A DNA stretch of 64,000 nt from Escherichia phage radambza, in sequence record MN850639.1; one strand, 5' to 3'. Numbering within the stretch: the first letter of the stretch is position 1; each line of letters begins with the position of its first letter. This document shows positions 4,536 to 21,933 of the stretch, piece by piece. A model generated the notes under the pieces. That model was not told the origin of the DNA, searched no databases, and worked only from the letters and a program-made list of their open reading frames with translations. The translations under genes were made by a program, and so were the position numbers.

Positions 4536-5888
4536 TTATTCGTAAGCCACTGTACCTTTCAAGTCAACATCCAAGATAGCCCCTGCTAAGATACCTGCGA
4601 AGGTAACATCTTTCAGGATACGAGCTTTCTTGTCTGCCAAAGCAACTTGAGAGGCTTTAGGAACATTAACTGTGTAAGATGACAGGAAGTTTCTGTTGAC
4701 TGCTCTTTGCAGAGAGGTTTCAATGACTTGACGAATACGGGTAATACCAGTATCATCATAAGTAATCTTACCACCCTTCTGGTTAATTAGCAAGTCTCTC
4801 AGAGAAGTTTTCAGGTCTGATTCTAACCAGTCAACACCACGGATGATATCAATCCATTCCCCACCAGAAGTAATCCCTCTACGAACCACTGGAACACCAC
4901 CATCAAGGTCAATAAAGTTACAGTGACGTGCATCTAAAGCTGACTTCTGAATACTTGTCAGAGGTCTCTGATTAGAAGGTTGTAGAGAAGCTGCTACACC
5001 AGTTAGCTGAGCATTACCCCAAGCAATTGAACCTGCATCATATGGAGCACCATAAGCAATGTATGCCATCTCTGGGTAATCTTCTGCTGCTGCGTGATGC
5101 CACAAGCAAACTGTACGAGTGTACATATTCTTAGCAAGCTGTGCTGGAACATCATTTGCACTGGCTAATTCTGTCCCTTGCAGTGCTGCTACATCAGAGT
5201 TAGCTGTAAAGAAGATTTTCTTGCGAGCCTGAATCTCAGAAGCCATCGCTAAGACAAACTGTTGAGTTCTGTCTTCTGCTGCAATGAAATACCAGTCGGT
5301 AGAATAAGCTTCGATAGCTGCCAGAGCAGTTGATGCTGTATCGGCAGTTGTACTTGCAATATACACAGTCTGTGCTGTGGTTGTTACTTTCACAAAGTCA
5401 TTATCACCAGCTTTGGTAATAATCATTGTGGCAGAGCCATTGCTACCAGTTACATTCACAGAAACCTTATCTTTGATTGTTGGGTCAGCTTCAATCTGTG
5501 TTTTAAACTGTTGCAACACTACCTCAGCAGTGTCTGAATCTTGTGCTGTGTACTGGTATGGTTGAGAAATTCCACCGCCAGCAGCTACAGTAATTGAGTA
5601 GTCTGTACTTTCGGTAACGGCATCAGGAATTGATACAGTGTACTGCATAGCACGTCTACCAATATAAAGCTGAGTTACTTTAGGAGTCTGACTCCAAAGT
5701 TGTTTAGCAGCCTTATATGCAGCAGAGTTTTCATCGAAATCTTCAGCAACTTCAGTTAAGGAAGTGTAACCACGGACTCTTTCTTCAAAGTTATCTGTTG
5801 AAGCTAAGAATAGTGGCAAACCAAAACCTTCTCTTGTAGTTCCTGCGGTGTTCAATGTAATATCTACATTAACAATTGGATTCCACAT
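4536..5888 (-). CDS. tail sheath protein (putative)
   Basis: 450 aa, ATG start; immediately upstream of tube gene; C-terminal GGEWIDIIRGVDWL region is sheath-like. Confidence 0.6.
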   Translation of the reverse strand: MWNPIVNVDITLNTAGTTREGFGLPLFLASTDNFEERVRGYTSLTEVAEDFDENSAAYKAAKQLWSQTPKVTQLYIGRRAMQYTVSIPDAVTESTDYSITVAAGGGISQPYQYTAQDSDTAEVVLQQFKTQIEADPTIKDKVSVNVTGSNGSATMIITKAGDNDFVKVTTTAQTVYIASTTADTASTALAAIEAYSTDWYFIAAEDRTQQFVLAMASEIQARKKIFFTANSDVAALQGTELASANDVPAQLAKNMYTRTVCLWHHAAAEDYPEMAYIAYGAPYDAGSIAWGNAQLTGVAASLQPSNQRPLTSIQKSALDARHCNFIDLDGGVPVVRRGITSGGEWIDIIRGVDWLESDLKTSLRDLLINQKGGKITYDDTGITRIRQVIETSLQRAVNRNFLSSYTVNVPKASQVALADKKARILKDVTFAGILAGAILDVDLKGTVAYE

Positions 5889-6488
5889 TTATTTTACCCC
5901 TTTGGAGTCTACATCTAGATGGATAGTATATTCTGGTGGCTCTTGTCCTTCTTCATAAACCAACTCACCATCAACAATGACACGCTCAATAATACTTCCA
6001 CGTTCATCCTTCAGGACTGAGTTTTTTACAAGAGTTACAACAAGAGGTGCAGAATTTTCGAAATCTGTATTGAGATAAGTATAGTCATTCGGGATAGCTC
6101 CAGTGTCTAGTACTGTAGCTCCTGTTTCTTCAAGGATTAAATCTCTGACTGAACTCATCTCTAATCGTTGTTTAAGCTCAAGCATAATACTGTGAGCACC
6201 TTTACCATTCACCGTAATTAATACTGGAATCTGAAAAGCAATTCTGTAGCAAACTACATCATCCTCAACAAACTTATCAAGAACCCAACCATAAGGTGTT
6301 GCAGCATCTTGACAATATACGGTAATAAATGGCTGGTCAGGTTTTAAACCTTTGTCATTTGAGTTATCAGAAGGGTAAGCTCTAATTACATTTGGTCTAT
6401 TATTCTTATCACGAGCTAATCTGTGACCAATAACATCCACTAAGGTTCTAACTAGACCTTTTTCAAGTTCTGCTGTTTCTAACTGCAT
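5889..6488 (-). CDS. head-tail joining / tail completion protein (putative)
   Basis: 199-aa ORF between capsid and sheath genes. Confidence 0.4.
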   Translation of the reverse strand: MQLETAELEKGLVRTLVDVIGHRLARDKNNRPNVIRAYPSDNSNDKGLKPDQPFITVYCQDAATPYGWVLDKFVEDDVVCYRIAFQIPVLITVNGKGAHSIMLELKQRLEMSSVRDLILEETGATVLDTGAIPNDYTYLNTDFENSAPLVVTLVKNSVLKDERGSIIERVIVDGELVYEEGQEPPEYTIHLDVDSKGVK

Positions 6489-6864
6489 TCATTTTATCCC
6501 TTCTAATAATGATATATTCATAATGGGACGTATGAGCTAATTGCTGTGACCAATCCATAGTCATAAATACTTCATACTCATGACCATCAATCATAACAAT
6601 ATCAGACTCATTCCACTCTACATCATCTGAAGTTCTAAGTTTATATGTGGTATACAGGATTCTTGTATCGGTAAGCCTAATACCTTCCGGTAAAGCAATC
6701 TGTGTACCATTCTTTACAGAACCTTTGATATATGGCTGGATATTACCTTTGCAGTTAACCTCTACAATATCTTGTGAAGCTACCCAATCACCATCATCAT
6801 TATAATAACCATCTTCAGAGACTTTACGCTTTACTACAAAGCTGTGTCTGTTTAAGAGTCTCAT
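6463..6864 (-). CDS. neck / head-tail connector protein (putative)
   Basis: 133-aa ORF, overlapping neighbours, in morphogenesis module. Confidence 0.4.
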   Translation of the reverse strand: MRLLNRHSFVVKRKVSEDGYYNDDGDWVASQDIVEVNCKGNIQPYIKGSVKNGTQIALPEGIRLTDTRILYTTYKLRTSDDVEWNESDIVMIDGHEYEVFMTMDWSQQLAHTSHYEYIIIRRDKMNAVRNSRT

Positions 6865-7343
6865 TTCTTAATACCCTTCTTAGTAGAAATTTTATAAGCA
6901 AGGTTATCTCTTAAGTCACCTGTCTCAACAAGAGGTGCATTAAAGCCTTTTTTCTTGACTGTGGAAGGTGCGTTAGGAGGGAGGATAGCAGAATTACCAA
7001 ACCCCCTTTTAATTACCTTTTGAGTATTCTTTGCAAATGCTTCTAAGGTATTTGAAGGGTCTGTGTTGAGACTGCTAAGTTGCTTATATAGATTCTTCTT
7101 AGTCTGCTCTAACAAGGTCTGTTTGTTTAGCATCATAGTGATTTCAAACAACCTACGATATACTTTACCAGAAGCTGAAGGAACCCCAATAACTTCTTGT
7201 AAATACATTAAAGCAGGATAAGAAAAACCAGAGCTATGTTGACCTTGTTCTTGAAAATACCCAACTTGAGCATTAGCCGTTTGCAAGTTCTTCATAGCCC
7301 CGACTAATTTTGCTCTAGCGGGGTGAATAACCCTTTTAACCAT
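6861..7343 (-). CDS. neck / head completion protein (putative)
   Basis: 160-aa ORF in morphogenesis module. Confidence 0.4.
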   Translation of the reverse strand: MVKRVIHPARAKLVGAMKNLQTANAQVGYFQEQGQHSSGFSYPALMYLQEVIGVPSASGKVYRRLFEITMMLNKQTLLEQTKKNLYKQLSSLNTDPSNTLEAFAKNTQKVIKRGFGNSAILPPNAPSTVKKKGFNAPLVETGDLRDNLAYKISTKKGIKK

Positions 7344-16424: not shown

Positions 16425-16982
16425 TTACTTTCTCAGTGGATGAATAAAGAATGCCAACATAACTCTTTCCCTTGAGAATGCTCTTTCTTCTGGGACAACA
16501 CTTTTTAGTTTCCATCCAATATAAATTCTCCAGTAAAATTGTTTACCAAAGATTTTAATTGATGGGATAAAAGCGAATAATCCCCAAGCATTCCTGTTCC
16601 ACATTAGGAGATAACCAGTCTGATTATCTTCAGGGTTAGAACTTACGTTGATATTACCTTTCCACTTAGTAACATCTTTTACATCTCTTCCTAACACATG
16701 GTAAGAGAAGTTATAAGCTTTGTTTCTCCAGAGCCATCCAACTCTTTGCATGTAGACACCTAGTTTACCAATCCATCTAATATTAGCCCATCTTTTAACG
16801 TGACCTTCATCACCATCAATTGGGTTGTCATATGTCTCCATCCATCTGAATCCGAAAGGTAAGTGTCCTTTCTTCTCACTGTAGAATGGAACTACAAAAG
16901 GTGCTAAGATAACTGCTAAGATTGCTGCAAATGGCTCTAACAAAGCTAAGAAAATCCATGAAGCATACTTTAAGTATCTCAT
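16425..16982 (-). CDS. membrane protein (N-terminal transmembrane segment, Trp-rich), function unknown
   Basis: 185 aa, ATG start; hydrophobic N-terminus IFLALLEPFAAILAVILAPFVVPF; embedded between tRNA genes. Confidence 0.55.
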   Translation of the reverse strand: MRYLKYASWIFLALLEPFAAILAVILAPFVVPFYSEKKGHLPFGFRWMETYDNPIDGDEGHVKRWANIRWIGKLGVYMQRVGWLWRNKAYNFSYHVLGRDVKDVTKWKGNINVSSNPEDNQTGYLLMWNRNAWGLFAFIPSIKIFGKQFYWRIYIGWKLKSVVPEERAFSRERVMLAFFIHPLRK

Positions 16983-17080: not shown

Positions 17081-17155
17081 TGGTACTCACTAAAGGACTT
17101 GAACCTTTTTCTTCATCTTGTAAGGGTGATGTTTTACCATATAAACTAAGCGAGT
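17081..17155 (-). tRNA. tRNA-Val (anticodon TAC)
   Basis: Acceptor ACTCGCT/AGTGAGT, D-stem GTTT/AAAC, anticodon loop ctTACaa, encoded CCA. Confidence 0.6.
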
Positions 17156-17159
17156 GTGA

Positions 17160-17250
17160 AAGAGGTCTGAAGTTGTGCCGCTAACTCAACTCCGTGGAAT
17201 TTGTTACGGTCTTCAGTTGACTCAAAGCGGTCTTTCACTTGACCTCTGAA
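17160..17250 (-). ncRNA. structured non-tRNA element (candidate small RNA or processing structure), strand uncertain
   Basis: Terminal inverted repeat AGAGGTC ... GACCTCT enclosing nested stems (AGTTG/CAACT, CCGT/ACGG, GACCGC/GCGGC-like); no T-loop or anticodon arm. Confidence 0.3.
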
Positions 17251-17251
17251 T

Positions 17252-17327
17252 TGGTGCTCCCACAAGGATTCGAACCCTGATAAGTTGCTTACAAGGCAAC
17301 CGTAATAGCCAATTATACGATAGGAGC
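17252..17327 (-). tRNA. tRNA-Thr (anticodon TGT)
   Basis: Acceptor GCTCCTA/TGGGAGC, perfect anticodon stem GTTGC/GCAAC loop ctTGTaa, encoded CCA. Confidence 0.7.
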
Positions 17328-17580: not shown

Positions 17581-17657
17581 TGGTACACCTAGAGAGATTC
17601 GAACTCACACTGAGCAGATTCTAAGTCTGCTGCCTCTACCAGTTGGGCTATAGGTGC
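17581..17657 (-). tRNA. tRNA with Leu-type anticodon TAG, short variable arm
   Basis: Perfect anticodon stem GCAGA/TCTGC loop ctTAGaa, acceptor GCACCTA/TAGGTGT, discriminator A, encoded CCA; 77 nt. Confidence 0.55.
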
Positions 17658-17915
17658 ATTAAATCTTTTTAGAGAACTTCTAAGAACCTGAGCAACAAGG
17701 TTCCACAACAAGCGACTAATAACCTTAGAAGCCCTCTAAAAAGACCTAAATAGGTCTTTGCATAGTCTTGTTTAATCCGGTGACTAGAACCTTTGGAGAG
17801 CTTGATATTATCTCTTCTCCGTGACACCTACTAGGTGTTTTATCAGTGTGTACGACAATACACGAGGGATACCAAAGCAACATCCGAATGAAGCTTGGCT
17901 TTAAATCTTATTAGG

Positions 17916-18016: not shown

Positions 18017-18099
18017 TGGCATGGGACGGAGGAGTTGAACCCCTTTGAAACGGTTTTGGAGGCCGTTGCTCATGCCTTAGAGTCTTAACATCGTCCCAT
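18017..18099 (-). tRNA. tRNA-Trp-like (anticodon CCA) with enlarged D region
   Basis: Perfect acceptor ATGGGAC/GTCCCAT with encoded CCA, T-loop TTCAACT, anticodon loop ctCCAaa; 26 nt between acceptor and anticodon stem instead of about 19. Confidence 0.45.
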
Positions 18100-18242: not shown

Positions 18243-18324
18243 TGGTCGAGGCGGCAGGACTCGAACCCGCATACTCCACTTACTCGGTTAACGGCGGTTT
18301 AGAAGACCGCTGAGATACGCCCCG
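18243..18324 (-). tRNA. tRNA-like element, atypical (anticodon-like loop TCT; no recognisable D arm; 23-nt variable region)
   Basis: Acceptor CGGGGCG/CGCCTCG, T-arm GCGGG/TTCGAGT/CCTGC, encoded CCA, perfect stem GCGGT/ACCGC with loop ctTCTaa, but only 7 nt between acceptor and that stem. Confidence 0.35.
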
Positions 18325-18572
18325 TAATTATCTTTAAAGACTCTCTTAGAAAGCCCTTAAAGATGCCCACTTTATTAATCATACCGTGGGCGAGTACGCC
18401 AAATTCTTTGATGAGGGATTGGAAGACCTCACTGGTGTTTAGCCTATCAAGCTACTGCCAGAAAAACATTGTCGTTTGCATTTATTTTAAATTTGCAAAA
18501 TAGACGCTACGCAACGAAAACTAAGGTTACTATAAAGTAGTCACATCTCAATGTCAACAACTTTATTGAAAG

Positions 18573-19314: not shown

Positions 19315-19743
19315 TCATGTACCATTTCTTAGATACTTCTTCCTACGTCTTTCTGGACTATAGTTTCTTCTACTCTCAGCATTCTTAGCCAGCCTACACT
19401 CATCGCATCTACAGCCTTTAAAATAGCTATACGCAGTTCCGTGTTTAATTGTTTTATGTTTTCTTTCACTTATCTGTGCTGGTCTTGCTGCTTTCATGTT
19501 ACATTTAAGATGACTATAAGAAATATTATCTAGTGAAAAGAAAAGCTCTTTTGCATTCTCACTATGTCTCCACGGAATCTTATGCTCGATAGAGAAATCA
19601 TCCCTAGTCATTTCTTTTCCGCACTGAAAACATCTATTTTGATTTGTCTTACATATAAAATCGAATAGCAAATCTTTTACTAGTCTGTTTTGTGCAGTTC
19701 CCAAACTCATACCAAGTTGTGATTTGTATACTTCATCTCTCAT
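19315..19743 (-). CDS. HNH homing endonuclease
   Basis: CFQCGKEMTRDDFSIEHKIPWRHSEN...SHLKCN HNH motif; ORF-track start at 19836 overlaps tRNA-Tyr, trimmed to ATG at 19741-19743. Confidence 0.75.
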   Translation of the reverse strand: MRDEVYKSQLGMSLGTAQNRLVKDLLFDFICKTNQNRCFQCGKEMTRDDFSIEHKIPWRHSENAKELFFSLDNISYSHLKCNMKAARPAQISERKHKTIKHGTAYSYFKGCRCDECRLAKNAESRRNYSPERRRKKYLRNGT

Positions 19744-19765
19744 AACTAAGTATCTCGCTAAGTGT

Positions 19766-19853
19766 TGGTGTGCCGTGTAGGAGTCGAACCTACCGAGTCT
19801 CAATGACAAGGGATTTACAGTCCCCACCGCTACCATCTACGGGATAACGACAC
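19766..19853 (-). tRNA. tRNA-Tyr (anticodon GTA), type II
   Basis: Acceptor GTGTCGT/ACGGCAC, anticodon stem GGGGA/TCCCT loop ctGTAaa, long variable arm, T-arm GTAGG/TTCGACT/CCTAC, encoded CCA. Confidence 0.7.
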
Positions 19854-20409: not shown

Positions 20410-20517
20410 AACTTTTTTAAAATATTTTTCAGTATCTTAGAAAAGCTCTCGTTTCGTTTCTATGTAGAACATATTAAAGGGTATCAAACACATTGTCAAT
20501 ACCCTTTTTGAAACTTT

Positions 20518-21933
20518 TTACCAGATGTAACGGTCAATCATTACTGCTTTGAGCATTACGCTGATTGGGTCAAACTTCTCACCACCAAGCAGAGCTTTTA
20601 AAGTTGCTGGAGAGAAACCAGATACCATTGCTACACCGTTATCCTTAACAGACACTTCGCAAGTACCATTACGGTTTGCTAAGTACCAGAATACCAGTTG
20701 AGGCATTTCGTACCCAGCTTTTTTGTACTTACTCTGAATTGCTTCAAAGTTTGTACGACCGTTAGCTCCATCAACCTGATTGAACTCCATATCGGAGAAG
20801 ATGATAAGCTTACTTGGCATGTCTTTCTGAGTCAAGTTGTTTCTCTTACCTACCTCAAGAATGCGGTCAAAAGCTGCTTGTAAGTTAGTTGAGCCATATT
20901 CAACATGTCGCATCACCTGACGATGACGGTTTCGTAAATCACCACTCAGTTCGATGAAGTGAGGGTTTGTTGAATAAACCATTAACTCATCCTTGAAGCA
21001 ACCTGTATTGCGTTCTGCTACATACAAGGCAAGTGATACACCAATATCAAGGGCAGTGATTGAACCAAGATTCACCCAAGACATTGAGCTTGAAACATCA
21101 GTCATACACAGGATGTTTTCACCTTCTGCCATCCAGTTTGGTAGTGCTTTCCACTGCTCATTAGCAACATCTGCATTACCATACTTGATAGATTTAATCA
21201 CATCGTATGGGTAAACAGCACCAGCATTAATCTTAGCCTCACCTTTTGAGAGGGACTCGATGTAAGCTTTGTAACGCTCTCCATCTTTACGGTTAAACAG
21301 TTTTTGGTAACGTGCAGCAGCAAGTGAAGGAATCTTACTGTAGTCAATCTTACCAAACTCATTAGCAGAGATTTTTTGCTCAACTGTATCAGATAGTGCA
21401 GACAACAGTGTGCGGTACTCTTTCTCACTCAAGTTGGCAAACTTGCAGAAACGTTTTACAAACTGCTTATGACGTGGTTTGACTCGTGGTAACCACTTAG
21501 CCGCCAAGCCTGCTGTTGCAGGGTCTAGTAATGCTGCTTCTAAATGTTTGAAGGCATCTGTCTCGAAACGAGTACCTACAAAGATTTTGAAGTCATCAAA
21601 ACGACCAAGCTCTGCAATCTTATCCATAATGCGAAGAACCTGTGTAGGTTCTAAAACTTTATCTTCAATTGCTTGAAGTAAAACAGTTCGGAAAGCTTTA
21701 CGCTCACCCATACCTTCTCGTACATCTCGCATATGCAGTAAAATACGAACTGCAACATCAACATCCTCACGCAAAGCTTTGTAGAACAGGTCTGGTAAGA
21801 TTACTACATTGCTACGGCTCGAACCAGCAGCTTTGTAAAAGTCTACAAGAGCAGACATTGATGAAGTATGGTTTACAGCACCATTTTCAGTTCGACCTGC
21901 ATGAAGGTGCGCATGTTTAAATAATTCGCTCAT
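20518..21933 (-). CDS. von Willebrand factor A (vWA) domain protein with N-terminal helical domain
   Basis: 471 aa; MIDAS-like ILCMTDVSSSM at about residue 280 and later IIFSDMEF; N-terminal roughly 270 aa of unknown fold. Confidence 0.6.
   Translation of the reverse strand: MSELFKHAHLHAGRTENGAVNHTSSMSALVDFYKAAGSSRSNVVILPDLFYKALREDVDVAVRILLHMRDVREGMGERKAFRTVLLQAIEDKVLEPTQVLRIMDKIAELGRFDDFKIFVGTRFETDAFKHLEAALLDPATAGLAAKWLPRVKPRHKQFVKRFCKFANLSEKEYRTLLSALSDTVEQKISANEFGKIDYSKIPSLAAARYQKLFNRKDGERYKAYIESLSKGEAKINAGAVYPYDVIKSIKYGNADVANEQWKALPNWMAEGENILCMTDVSSSMSWVNLGSITALDIGVSLALYVAERNTGCFKDELMVYSTNPHFIELSGDLRNRHRQVMRHVEYGSTNLQAAFDRILEVGKRNNLTQKDMPSKLIIFSDMEFNQVDGANGRTNFEAIQSKYKKAGYEMPQLVFWYLANRNGTCEVSVKDNGVAMVSGFSPATLKALLGGEKFDPISVMLKAVMIDRYIW

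What the first reader, a model, noticed from the sequence alone, without database searches (positions are those of the whole stretch)
17160..17250. About 90-nt element with nested inverted repeats between tRNA-Val and tRNA-Thr
Not a tRNA (no T-loop or anticodon arm), but closed by a 7-bp terminal pairing AGAGGTC/GACCTCT with at least three internal stems. It sits in a spacer that in the rest of the cluster is only 2-10 nt. Candidate small RNA, processing signal or Y-RNA-like partner.
Basis: seen in the sequence. Interest (0 to 1): 0.45.

Follow-up and report, generated by a model that had tools for sequence, protein, structure and literature searches.

The report
Conserved structured RNA inside phage tRNA operon
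A roughly 90-base stretch between two tRNA genes of a Felix O1-like phage is a strongly conserved, folded non-coding RNA of a family not yet catalogued; its job is unknown, and it is probably not the partner of the phage's Ro60-like protein.

Summary
Window 17156-17251 (minus strand, the tRNA strand) is closed by the 7-bp pairing AGAGGUC/GACCUCU and folds far better than shuffles (z = -3.7).

It matches no tRNA model, no Rfam family and no conserved ORF. It occurs in 259 phage records: 253 Ounavirinae and 6 Avunavirus-like phages. A 27-39 nt core is identical between the two groups, although synonymous sites of a neighbouring shared gene are only 52% identical.

S2 crosses P2, so the RNA is either pseudoknotted or switches between two folds.

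The window does encode a Ro60 homolog 3.3 kb upstream. However, four better Y-RNA-like candidates sit elsewhere in the same cluster. The element lacks their CAGCAA box. It also persists unchanged in two complete Avunavirus-like genomes that have no Ro60.

Best reading: an autonomous small RNA cut out of the tRNA precursor by tRNA-processing enzymes, whose invariant core is a docking site for an unidentified partner. It is a new family of a known kind, comparable to T4 rnaC/rnaD.

The parts
17156..17251 (-). Whole spacer holding the element (about 88 nt from P1 to P1, plus a 4-nt leader and a 5-nt trailer)
   Evidence: covariance model R1 matches 17160-17248 at 112 bits
17241..17247 (-). P1, 5' strand (AGAGGUC)
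   Evidence: pair 5/85 changes G-C to U-A in Avunavirus and to G-U in L299
17161..17167 (-). P1, 3' strand (GACCUCU)
17227..17232 (-). P2, 5' strand (G-A-CCGC, with A bulged)
   Evidence: pair 17/72 changes G-C to A-U (Avunavirus); pair 21/69 changes G-C to A-U (L268, whose element differs from the window's only at these two bases)
17177..17181 (-). P2, 3' strand (GCGGC)
17187..17193 (-). S2, 5' strand (GGAGUUG); it also serves as the 3' strands of the alternative stems P3 and P4
   Evidence: 100% paired in 20 distinct sequences, with 4 of 7 pairs varying compatibly
17169..17175 (-). S2, 3' strand (CAACUUC)
17195..17221 (-). Core GUCAACUGAAGACCGUAACAAAUUCCA, identical in the Ounavirinae consensus, the L297 lineage and Avunavirus; three Ounavirinae variants each carry one substitution
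   Evidence: neutral divergence measured
17215..17220 (-). Alternative P3, 5' strand (UCAACU), which competes with the S2 3' strand for GGAGUUG
   Evidence: no covariation, only conservation
17206..17209 (-). Alternative P4, 5' strand (CCGU), closing the loop AACAAAUUCC
   Evidence: three uncompensated breaks (L015, L174, L249)
17252..17327 (-). Upstream tRNA-Thr(tgt); its 3' processing would set the element's 5' end
17081..17155 (-). Downstream tRNA-Val(tac); RNase P cleavage at its 5' end would set the element's 3' end
   Evidence: the processing step is inferred

Best explanation
The element is an autonomous small non-coding RNA of about 88-95 nt. It is transcribed as part of the phage's polycistronic tRNA precursor and released by the host enzymes that mature the flanking tRNAs. 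RNase P cutting at the 5' end of tRNA-Val would make its 3' end. Endonucleolytic cutting and trimming after the CCA of tRNA-Thr would make its 5' end. A closing stem (P1) and an inner stem (P2) form a scaffold kept intact by compensatory substitutions. Inside, the strand GGAGUUG can pair with a downstream CAACUUC (helix S2, which crosses P2 and so gives a pseudoknot). Alternatively it can pair with an upstream UCAACU/CCGU, which gives the rod-like fold. The invariant 27-39 nt core is exposed in the first state and sequestered in the second. That core is most likely a sequence-specific docking site for a trans-acting partner shared by all carriers. The partner could be a protein or RNA of Escherichia/Salmonella-type hosts, or a phage factor common to Ounavirinae and Avunavirus. 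The RNA would then act as a decoy or regulator rather than as a tRNA or a Ro60 partner. Shown: existence, strand, conservation, and helices P1, P2 and S2. Inferred: biogenesis by tRNA processing. Speculative: the switch and the decoy function.
For: Fold z = -3.7 on the tRNA strand. G-U pairs, invariant or arising by substitution, work only on the minus strand. The element is in 259 phage records and further metagenome contigs. Within Ounavirinae, pairwise diversity is 0.032 for the element, against 0.147 for tRNA-Thr and 0.064 for tRNA-Val. Between the window and Av-05, the shared DUF7338 gene is 72% identical in DNA and 52% identical at third positions of identical codons, yet the core is 39/39 identical. 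P1, P2 and S2 together are 99.2% paired with four double-change pairs; only 3 of 500 shuffles reach that number of pairs. The flanks differ between clades (Thr/Val versus Gly/ORF76) while the module is kept, which argues for autonomy. There is no promoter or terminator next to it, and promoter-like sites lie upstream at 20499, 20408 and 18557 on the same strand. One-base indels among close relatives shift the only open frame, so it is not coding. T4 offers a precedent: rnaC and rnaD are annotated as stable RNAs in its tRNA operon.
Against: No expression or end-mapping data were available. No partner was identified. No complementary target above chance was found in the window or in Av-05, and there is no similarity to E. 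coli genomes. Covariation rests on few independent events, because diversity is low (20 distinct sequences). P2 and S2 cannot both be drawn without a pseudoknot whose connecting loop is only 1 nt, so simultaneous formation is unproven. Simple thermodynamics favours the rod in Felixounavirus but the S2 fold in Avunavirus and L297.
Confidence: 0.45

Rival explanations
1. It is a Y-RNA-like partner of the phage Ro60 homolog: a miniature Y RNA whose apical purine-bulged helix docks onto the Ro60 ring.
For: ORF 20518-21933 (DUF2828+DUF7788) is predicted to fold as Ro60 (Foldseek to 2i91, TMq 0.66, probability 1.0). The element lies 3.3 kb downstream on the same strand, within the 4-kb rule of PMC4201824. 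Its size and terminal stem fit a Y RNA. It shares C-N-GAAGACCGU with Y-like RNAs Y2 and Y4, and shows the same order of helix, AGA-type bulge, helix, then (U/A)ACA. A preprint on Bas63 suspects unrecognised Y RNAs among the tRNA genes.
Against: Two complete Avunavirus-like genomes carry the element with an unchanged core, yet have no Ro60 (tblastn E<=1 finds nothing, while controls at 34-52% identity are found) and no Y-like RNAs. There is no YrlA or Y_RNA match at E<=10. It has no CGAA motif, no CAGCAA box and no T/D-arm module. R1 finds nothing in 77 other Ro60 loci. Local alignment to Y1-Y4 is not significant (69 to 623 of 1000 shuffles score as well). Four better candidates exist in the same cluster.
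Confidence: 0.15
2. It is a cis-acting processing or insulating hairpin of the tRNA precursor, for example an RNase III or RNase E entry site, or a folding spacer. It would have no function after cleavage.
For: It sits inside a polycistronic tRNA transcript. In Avunavirus it lies exactly at the boundary between the tRNA part and an mRNA part. It is a long irregular hairpin, like the T7 RNase III sites (my own knowledge, not tested here).
Against: The most conserved part is the apical or internal core rather than the basal duplex. A 27-39 nt invariant sequence is far more information than known RNase E or RNase III determinants need. Most other tRNA junctions in the same cluster do without any such element, with spacers of 1-7 nt. 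The flanks change while the module stays.
Confidence: 0.2
3. It is a decaying remnant of a tRNA or Y-like RNA with no present function, conserved only because the phages are closely related.
For: Most carriers are closely related Felixounaviruses. There is partial box similarity to Y2 and Y4.
Against: It is less variable than the flanking functional tRNAs. The core is 39/39 identical across a divergence at which synonymous sites are 52% identical. Compensatory changes occur in three helices.
Confidence: 0.05
4. It is a DNA-level or coding feature: a small ORF, a homing-endonuclease target, or a protein-binding palindrome.
For: Some GenBank records annotate a hypothetical protein over it. HNH genes are inserted nearby in some relatives.
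Against: One-base indels among near-identical relatives break the only open frame. The substitutions keep G-U pairs on one strand only. The HNH insertion in BPS15Q2 lies beyond tRNA-Thr, not at the element.
Confidence: 0.03

Closest known systems
T4 rnaC (species 1) and rnaD (species 2): small stable RNAs in the phage T4 tRNA operon
   Same: They are non-tRNA structured RNAs of about 90-140 nt, encoded on the tRNA strand inside a phage tRNA cluster. By established knowledge they are released by tRNA-processing enzymes. Their function is still unknown.
   Different: There is no sequence or model similarity (R1 finds nothing in the T4 region with filters off). The T4 RNAs end in tRNA-like T-arm/CCA segments, and this element has none. 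This element has a crossing helix and an invariant internal core.
Bacterial and phage Y RNAs (YrlA, Rfam RF02553; Chen et al. 2014, PMC4201824; Thermus phage phiLo Yrl1/2, PMC12135203)
   Same: The size is 80-130 nt, with a 5'-3' closing stem. In Ounavirinae it is encoded within 4 kb of, and on the same strand as, a Ro60 homolog. It has a purine-rich bulge next to a helix.
   Different: It has no GNCGAAN0-1G or CGAA motif, no tRNA-like domain and no covariance-model match. It is present in phages without Ro60 and absent near other phage Ro60 genes.
CAGCAA-box Y-like RNAs next to DUF2828-type phage Ro60 genes (recognised here: Y1-Y4 in this window, relatives in Klebsiella phage FBKp34 and many metagenomic phages)
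   Same: They share the cluster, the strand and the likely mode of release. They share the string C-N-GAAGACCGU and the order of helix, AGA-type bulge, helix, then (U/A)ACA.
   Different: The element lacks the CAGCAA box. Its shared string is internal rather than at the 5' end. Its 3' partner sequence differs. Its distribution is decoupled from Ro60.
T7-type RNase III processing hairpins in phage polycistronic transcripts
   Same: It is an irregular hairpin with internal loops, placed between units of a polycistronic early transcript.
   Different: The conservation is concentrated in the core sequence, and covariation supports a crossing helix. No cleavage data exist.

Membership tests
tRNA (Rfam RF00005) | Cloverleaf with anticodon arm and T-loop, detectable by ARAGORN or the Rfam tRNA model | tested here: not met
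   ARAGORN reports no gene at 17156-17251. There is no tRNA-clan match even when the element is searched alone at E<=10.
Y RNA / YrlA (RF02553, RF00019) | Match to the family covariance model | tested here: not met
   No YrlA or Y_RNA match at E<=10. The same search does detect sub-threshold YrlA next to Ro60 in FBKp34 and Krypton555.
Y RNA / YrlA | Ro60-binding motif near the 5' end (GNCGAAN0-1G in bacteria, GGUCCGA in animals, 'CGAA' in phiLo) | tested here: not met
   The 96-nt sequence contains no CGAA. The nearest strings are GGUCAAGUG in the window and GGUCGAGUG in Suspvirus.
Y RNA / YrlA | tRNA-like domain (T-arm and D-arm mimics) | tested here: not met
   No T-loop or D-loop sequence is present. 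In contrast, Y4 at 19089-18953 has GAAGGUUCGAUUCCUUC.
Y RNA / YrlA | Encoded within about 4 kb of a Ro60 gene on the same strand, and co-distributed with it | tested here: inconclusive
   Met in Ounavirinae and the L297 lineage (3.3 kb). Not met in Av-05 and TH18, which have the element but no Ro60. The element is absent from 77 other Ro60 loci.
Y RNA / YrlA | Physical binding to Ro60 | not testable with these tools
   This needs RNA immunoprecipitation or a gel-shift assay with the phage Ro60 homolog.
CAGCAA-box Y-like RNAs of DUF2828-Ro60 phages | 5' box AAGA, then a helix strand, then UACAGCAA, closed by a complementary 3' end | tested here: not met
   The element has GAAGACCGU followed by AACAAAUUCC and no CAGCAA. 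Its similarity to Y1-Y4 is not significant.
Small stable RNAs of phage tRNA operons (T4 rnaC/rnaD type) | Non-tRNA structured RNA on the tRNA strand inside the tRNA operon | tested here: met
Small stable RNAs of phage tRNA operons (T4 rnaC/rnaD type) | Accumulates as a discrete stable species released by RNase P and other tRNA-processing enzymes | not testable with these tools
   No transcript data are held, and the literature search found none.
Self-cleaving ribozymes (hammerhead, twister, HDV-like and others) | Match to a family model, with core elements in the right order | tested here: not met
   No Rfam ribozyme match. CUGAAGA is followed by a helix but not by the required GAAA.
Protein-coding small ORF | A reading frame conserved among relatives | tested here: not met
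   The 1-nt length variants GCUUUGAG, GCUGGUG and GCUUGAG occur among near-identical phages.

The most novel reading that the evidence does not exclude
The element is a pseudoknotted, conformation-switching decoy RNA. Phages of Escherichia, Salmonella, Shigella and Citrobacter would carry it in their tRNA operons to capture or redirect a host RNA-binding factor, such as a defence nuclease or an RNA-decay enzyme. It would work independently of the phage Ro60/Y-RNA system next to it. That would make it a new class of phage counter-defence or host-takeover RNA.
Probability: 0.15. Interest if true: 0.8.

Novelty: new member of a known kind. Interest (0 to 1): 0.5.

Why it matters
Felix O1-like phages are widely used for typing and therapy, and are now used for genome-wide functional screens. 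Even so, their non-coding content is unannotated: none of the roughly 180 record rows listed across searches shows any RNA feature here other than the flanking tRNAs. This element is one of the most conserved stretches of the tRNA region. It has been kept across two phage subfamilies with a core identical in the two consensus sequences. That implies a specific interaction worth finding. Separating it from the Ro60 system also sharpens an open question raised by the Bas63 screen, which showed a Ro60-like protein countering the ppl defence and suspected unidentified Y RNAs. The concrete Y-RNA candidates are Y1-Y4, not this element. Both sets can now be tested directly.

Tried and rejected
- **tRNA or pseudo-tRNA:** rejected.
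- **Any Rfam family**, including YrlA, Y_RNA, ribozymes and riboswitches: no match.
- **Hammerhead reading of CUGAAGA...GAAA:** the core elements are in the wrong order.
- **Kink-turn reading of the GAAGA bulge:** the opposing bases would give G-G and A-A rather than sheared G-A pairs (from the sequence itself).
- **Small ORF:** frameshifting indels rule it out.
- **Host mimic:** no similarity in 5,426 E. coli genomes apart from one chance 24-nt match. No exact core match in 185,579 species genomes.
- **Antisense target in the phage:** complementary 9- and 10-mers occur at chance level in the window and in Av-05.
- **Link to the DUF7338 membrane protein:** the gene is shared with Avunavirus and lies downstream in both. 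However, R1 finds nothing next to DUF7338 in T4-like and other phages, and the L297 locus has the element without DUF7338.
- **Link to HNH homing endonucleases:** the insertion in BPS15Q2 is on the far side of tRNA-Thr.
- **Homology to T4 rnaC/rnaD:** none.
- **Homology to Y1-Y4 by local alignment:** not significant.
- **Alternative pairings:** GUGAAAGA/UCUUUCAC and CUGAAG/CUUCAG are contradicted by substitutions in relatives.
- **Loose DNA patterns** in viral and metagenome collections mostly returned chance matches.

Full report
**What the window is.** The region is 99% identical to Felix O1-like phages (Felixounavirus, Ounavirinae), such as Escherichia phages ECML-1 and JN01. ARAGORN finds 24 tRNA genes, all on the minus strand, between 15065 and 20352. 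The finding lies between tRNA-Thr(tgt) 17252-17327 and tRNA-Val(tac) 17081-17155, so the relevant strand is the minus strand.

**Checking the observation.**
- The 7-nt arms AGAGGTC (17161-17167) and GACCTCT (17241-17247) are perfectly complementary.
- As RNA on the minus strand, the 96-nt spacer folds at -30 kcal/mol, against -19.4 +/- 2.9 for dinucleotide shuffles (z = -3.71; none of 200 shuffles does as well). The plus strand is weaker (z = -2.62).
- ARAGORN, the Rfam tRNA model and all 4,227 Rfam families give nothing here, even when the element is searched alone at E<=10.
The cluster has several long gaps, and some of them hold other structured RNAs, described below.

**Distribution.**
- BLAST finds the element in 259 phage records. 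Of these, 253 are Ounavirinae of Escherichia, Salmonella, Shigella and Citrobacter (Felixounavirus, Mooglevirus, Suspvirus). The other six are Avunavirus-like Vequintavirinae, including Av-05 and TH18, at about 82% identity.
- Pattern scans add IMG/VR and metagenome copies. These include a more divergent lineage (L297, an 81-kb contig) and a variant, L268.
- A covariance model built from the family (R1) finds exactly one copy per genome. It finds nothing next to DUF7338 genes of T4-like phages, nothing in 77 loci around other phage Ro60 genes, and nothing in the T4 tRNA region.
- There is no match in E. coli genomes or in one genome per bacterial species.

**Selection.**
- Among 25 distinct Ounavirinae versions, mean pairwise diversity is 0.032 for the element. 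It is 0.147 for tRNA-Thr and 0.064 for tRNA-Val on either side.
- The DUF7338 gene is shared between the window and Av-05. It is 72% identical in DNA, and only 52% identical at third positions of codons for identical residues. Neutral sites are therefore heavily diverged.
- Despite that, 39 consecutive bases of the element are identical between the two clades. GUCAACUGAAGACCGUAACAAAUUCCA is also unchanged in L297.
- The flanks differ. In Avunavirus the element follows tRNA-Gly(tcc) and precedes a small ORF and the DUF7338 gene. It therefore behaves as a self-contained module.
- One-base length differences among near-identical phages (GCUUUGAG, GCUGGUG, GCUUGAG) shift the only open frame, which excludes a peptide.

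**Structure.**
- The minimum-energy rod (P1, P1b, P2, P3, P4) is 96.4% paired over 20 distinct sequences, with three double-change pairs: 5/85 in P1, and 17/72 and 21/69 in P2.
- The L268 variant differs from the window element at exactly two bases, and those two bases form pair 21/69 (G-C to A-U).
- The apical stem P4 has three uncompensated breaks (L015, L174, L249). P1b is missing in Avunavirus.
- Folding the Avunavirus and L297 versions alone gave a different inner fold, which pointed to helix S2. S2 pairs GGAGUUG (17193-17187) with CAACUUC (17175-17169).
- S2 is paired in all 20 sequences. Four of its seven pairs vary compatibly. Pair 58/78 changes A-U to G-C three times and to G-U once. 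Pair 57/79 changes G-U to G-C six times and to A-U once. The A-U case is the same L015 substitution that 'breaks' P4. Pair 56/80 changes G-C to G-U, and pair 60/76 changes U-A to U-G.
- P1+P2+S2 together are 99.2% paired with four double-change pairs. Only 3 of 500 shuffles reach that number of pairs, and every slid register falls to about 40% paired.
- S2 crosses P2. The RNA is therefore either a pseudoknot closed by P1, or it alternates between two folds in which GGAGUUG pairs with one of two CAAC-containing strands.
- Nearest-neighbour energies favour the rod in Felixounavirus (-30 against -22 kcal/mol for P1+S2 without P2). They favour the S2 fold in Avunavirus and L297 (-23.5 against -17).
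- Two other inverted repeats in the sequence are contradicted by substitutions in relatives.
- Several conserved or newly arising G-U pairs work only on the minus strand. This supports an RNA rather than a DNA element.

**The Ro60 lead.**
- ORF 20518-21933 lies directly upstream of the cluster on the same strand. It carries DUF2828 and DUF7788.
- A confident model (pLDDT 88.5) matches Ro60 over its whole length. The hits are Xenopus 2i91 (TMq 0.66), Deinococcus Rsr, and the Thermus phage phiLo Ro60.
- Homologs in mycobacteriophages are annotated 'Ro-like RNA binding protein'.
- A preprint on Bas63, a Felixounavirus, shows that this protein (gp130) counters the ppl defence system. It guesses that some 'tRNA genes' downstream are really Y RNAs.
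- Y RNAs are defined by a terminal stem, a Ro-binding motif (GNCGAAN0-1G, or CGAA), a tRNA-like module in bacteria, and a position within 4 kb of Ro60 on the same strand.
- The element meets only the size, the terminal stem and, in Ounavirinae, the position.

**Better Y-RNA candidates in the same cluster.**
- Four paralogous RNAs lie on the minus strand: Y1 about 20186-20108, Y2 about 20019-19949, Y3 about 19176-19097 and Y4 about 19089-18953.
- All begin (A/G)CAGAAGACC-NN-UACAGCAA and end NN-GGUCUGG.
- Each folds as a 4-bp outer helix, an AGA/G internal loop and a 7-8 bp inner helix. There are compensatory differences between paralogs, and between the window and L297.
- Y4 carries a T-arm-like hairpin, a second hairpin and a D-arm-like hairpin. 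This is the YrlA layout, although the Rfam YrlA model does not report it.
- The same ACAGCAA box occurs next to the Ro60 gene of Klebsiella phage FBKp34, where one copy is a sub-threshold YrlA match.
- The box is three-fold enriched on the Ro60 strand in 83 Ro60 loci: 171 occurrences against 58 on the other strand, with about 53 expected.

**Does the element belong with them?**
- It shares C-N-GAAGACCGU with Y2 and Y4, and a similar order of helix, purine bulge, helix, then (U/A)ACA. It lacks CAGCAA, however, and local alignment to Y1-Y4 is no better than shuffles.
- More decisively, Av-05 (120 of 120.9 kb examined) and TH18 (the complete 133.9 kb) have the element with an unchanged core. They have no Ro60 homolog: tblastn at E<=1 finds nothing, although controls at 34% and 52% identity are found easily. 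Pfam finds nothing relevant in the large unassigned ORFs tested. They also have no CAGCAA RNAs.
- The element's function therefore does not require the phage Ro60.

**Most likely mechanism.**
- No promoter-like or terminator-like site adjoins the element. Promoter-like sites lie upstream on the same strand at 20499, 20408 and 18557. It is therefore transcribed within the tRNA precursor.
- By the established pathway of polycistronic tRNA maturation, RNase P cutting at the 5' end of tRNA-Val, and endonucleolytic cutting with trimming after the CCA of tRNA-Thr, would release it. This step is inferred, not shown.
- The pattern is a compensated scaffold (P1, P2, S2) around a long invariant sequence, kept while the flanks change. 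That fits a trans-acting RNA whose core is recognised sequence-specifically by a partner common to all carriers. It fits a cis-acting cleavage site less well.
- I could not identify the partner. No antisense target exceeds chance.

**Comparison with known systems.**
- The closest known kind is the pair of small stable RNAs in the T4 tRNA operon, rnaC and rnaD. They occupy the same genomic niche and are also unexplained, but they are unrelated in sequence.
- I file the element as a new family of that kind. It is not a Y RNA, because defining features of Y RNAs were tested and not met.
- Searches of the held literature found no description of it.

**Verdict.** The feature is real and under strong selection. 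It belongs to no catalogued RNA family, and its function is unknown. Interest is moderate for the element itself. The Y-like RNAs noticed alongside it may be of more immediate use.

Noticed in passing
window 20186-20108, 20019-19949, 19176-19097, 19089-18953 (all minus strand): Four paralogous small RNAs (Y1-Y4) share the 5' box (A/G)CAGAAGACC-NN-UACAGCAA, the 3' end NN-GGUCUGG, a bulged terminal helix and compensatory differences between copies. Y4 also has T-arm-like and D-arm-like hairpins (the YrlA layout), yet it is not reported by the Rfam YrlA model. They are the concrete Y-RNA candidates for the adjacent Ro60 homolog.
   Followed up: partly
window 20518-21933 (minus strand): This 471-aa ORF (DUF2828+DUF7788) is predicted to fold as a Ro60 ring plus a vWA domain (Foldseek to 2i91, 1yvp, 2nvo, 9l5y). 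It is the homolog of Bas63 gp130, which a preprint reports to counter the ppl defence.
   Followed up: yes
L245 6540-6850; L244 5471-5673; loci L375-L449, near positions 4900-4960 and 6400-6900: The heptamer ACAGCAA, usually preceded by AAGA and a 5-7 nt helix strand, is three-fold enriched on the coding strand next to DUF2828-type Ro60 genes of very diverse phages (171 against 58; about 53 expected). It often occurs as two copies about 60 nt apart, just after the stop codon or just before the start. This looks like a family-wide signature of their Y-like RNAs.
   Followed up: partly
window 18246-18324 and 18023-18097 (minus strand): Two tRNA-like sequences are missed by ARAGORN. The first scores 31.7 bits with the Rfam tRNA model, above the gathering score, and appears to carry a UCU anticodon with a long extra arm. 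L297 has a normal tRNA-Arg(tct) at the matching place. The second scores 23 bits and appears to carry a CCA anticodon.
   Followed up: no
window 17658-17913 (minus strand): This 256-nt gap between tRNA-Ser and tRNA-Leu holds a long hairpin (about 17654-17753, picked up as a spurious microRNA-precursor match). It also holds a terminator-like hairpin, AAAGACCUAUUUAGGUCUUUUU. These may be further non-tRNA RNAs or an internal terminator.
   Followed up: no
window 18326-18572 (minus strand): A near-consensus promoter-like site (TTGACA, 17 nt, TATAGT at 18557-18529) lies inside the tRNA cluster. It is followed by about 200 nt with weak tmRNA-like matches (17-32 bits, below threshold). This region is unexplained.
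   Followed up: no
window 16425-16982 (minus strand); L001 1697-2239: A 185-aa DUF7338 (PF24027) gene sits inside the tRNA cluster; its N-terminus looks hydrophobic, so it may be a membrane protein. It is shared at 78% identity with Avunavirus and at 55-60% with T4-like phages. It lies downstream of the element in both clades but is not generally linked to it.
   Followed up: partly
window 17081-17155 and 17252-17327; alignment: tRNA-Thr and tRNA-Val each exist as two clearly different alleles that are shuffled among Felixounavirus, Mooglevirus and Suspvirus genomes, while the element between them stays almost constant. This suggests recombination within the cluster.
   Followed up: no
window 19315-19836 (minus strand); L249 630-1043: An HNH endonuclease ORF lies inside the cluster, and its listed start overlaps tRNA-Tyr. 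In Salmonella phage BPS15Q2 another HNH gene is inserted between tRNA-Gly and tRNA-Thr. Free-standing homing endonucleases therefore seem to move within these tRNA clusters.
   Followed up: no
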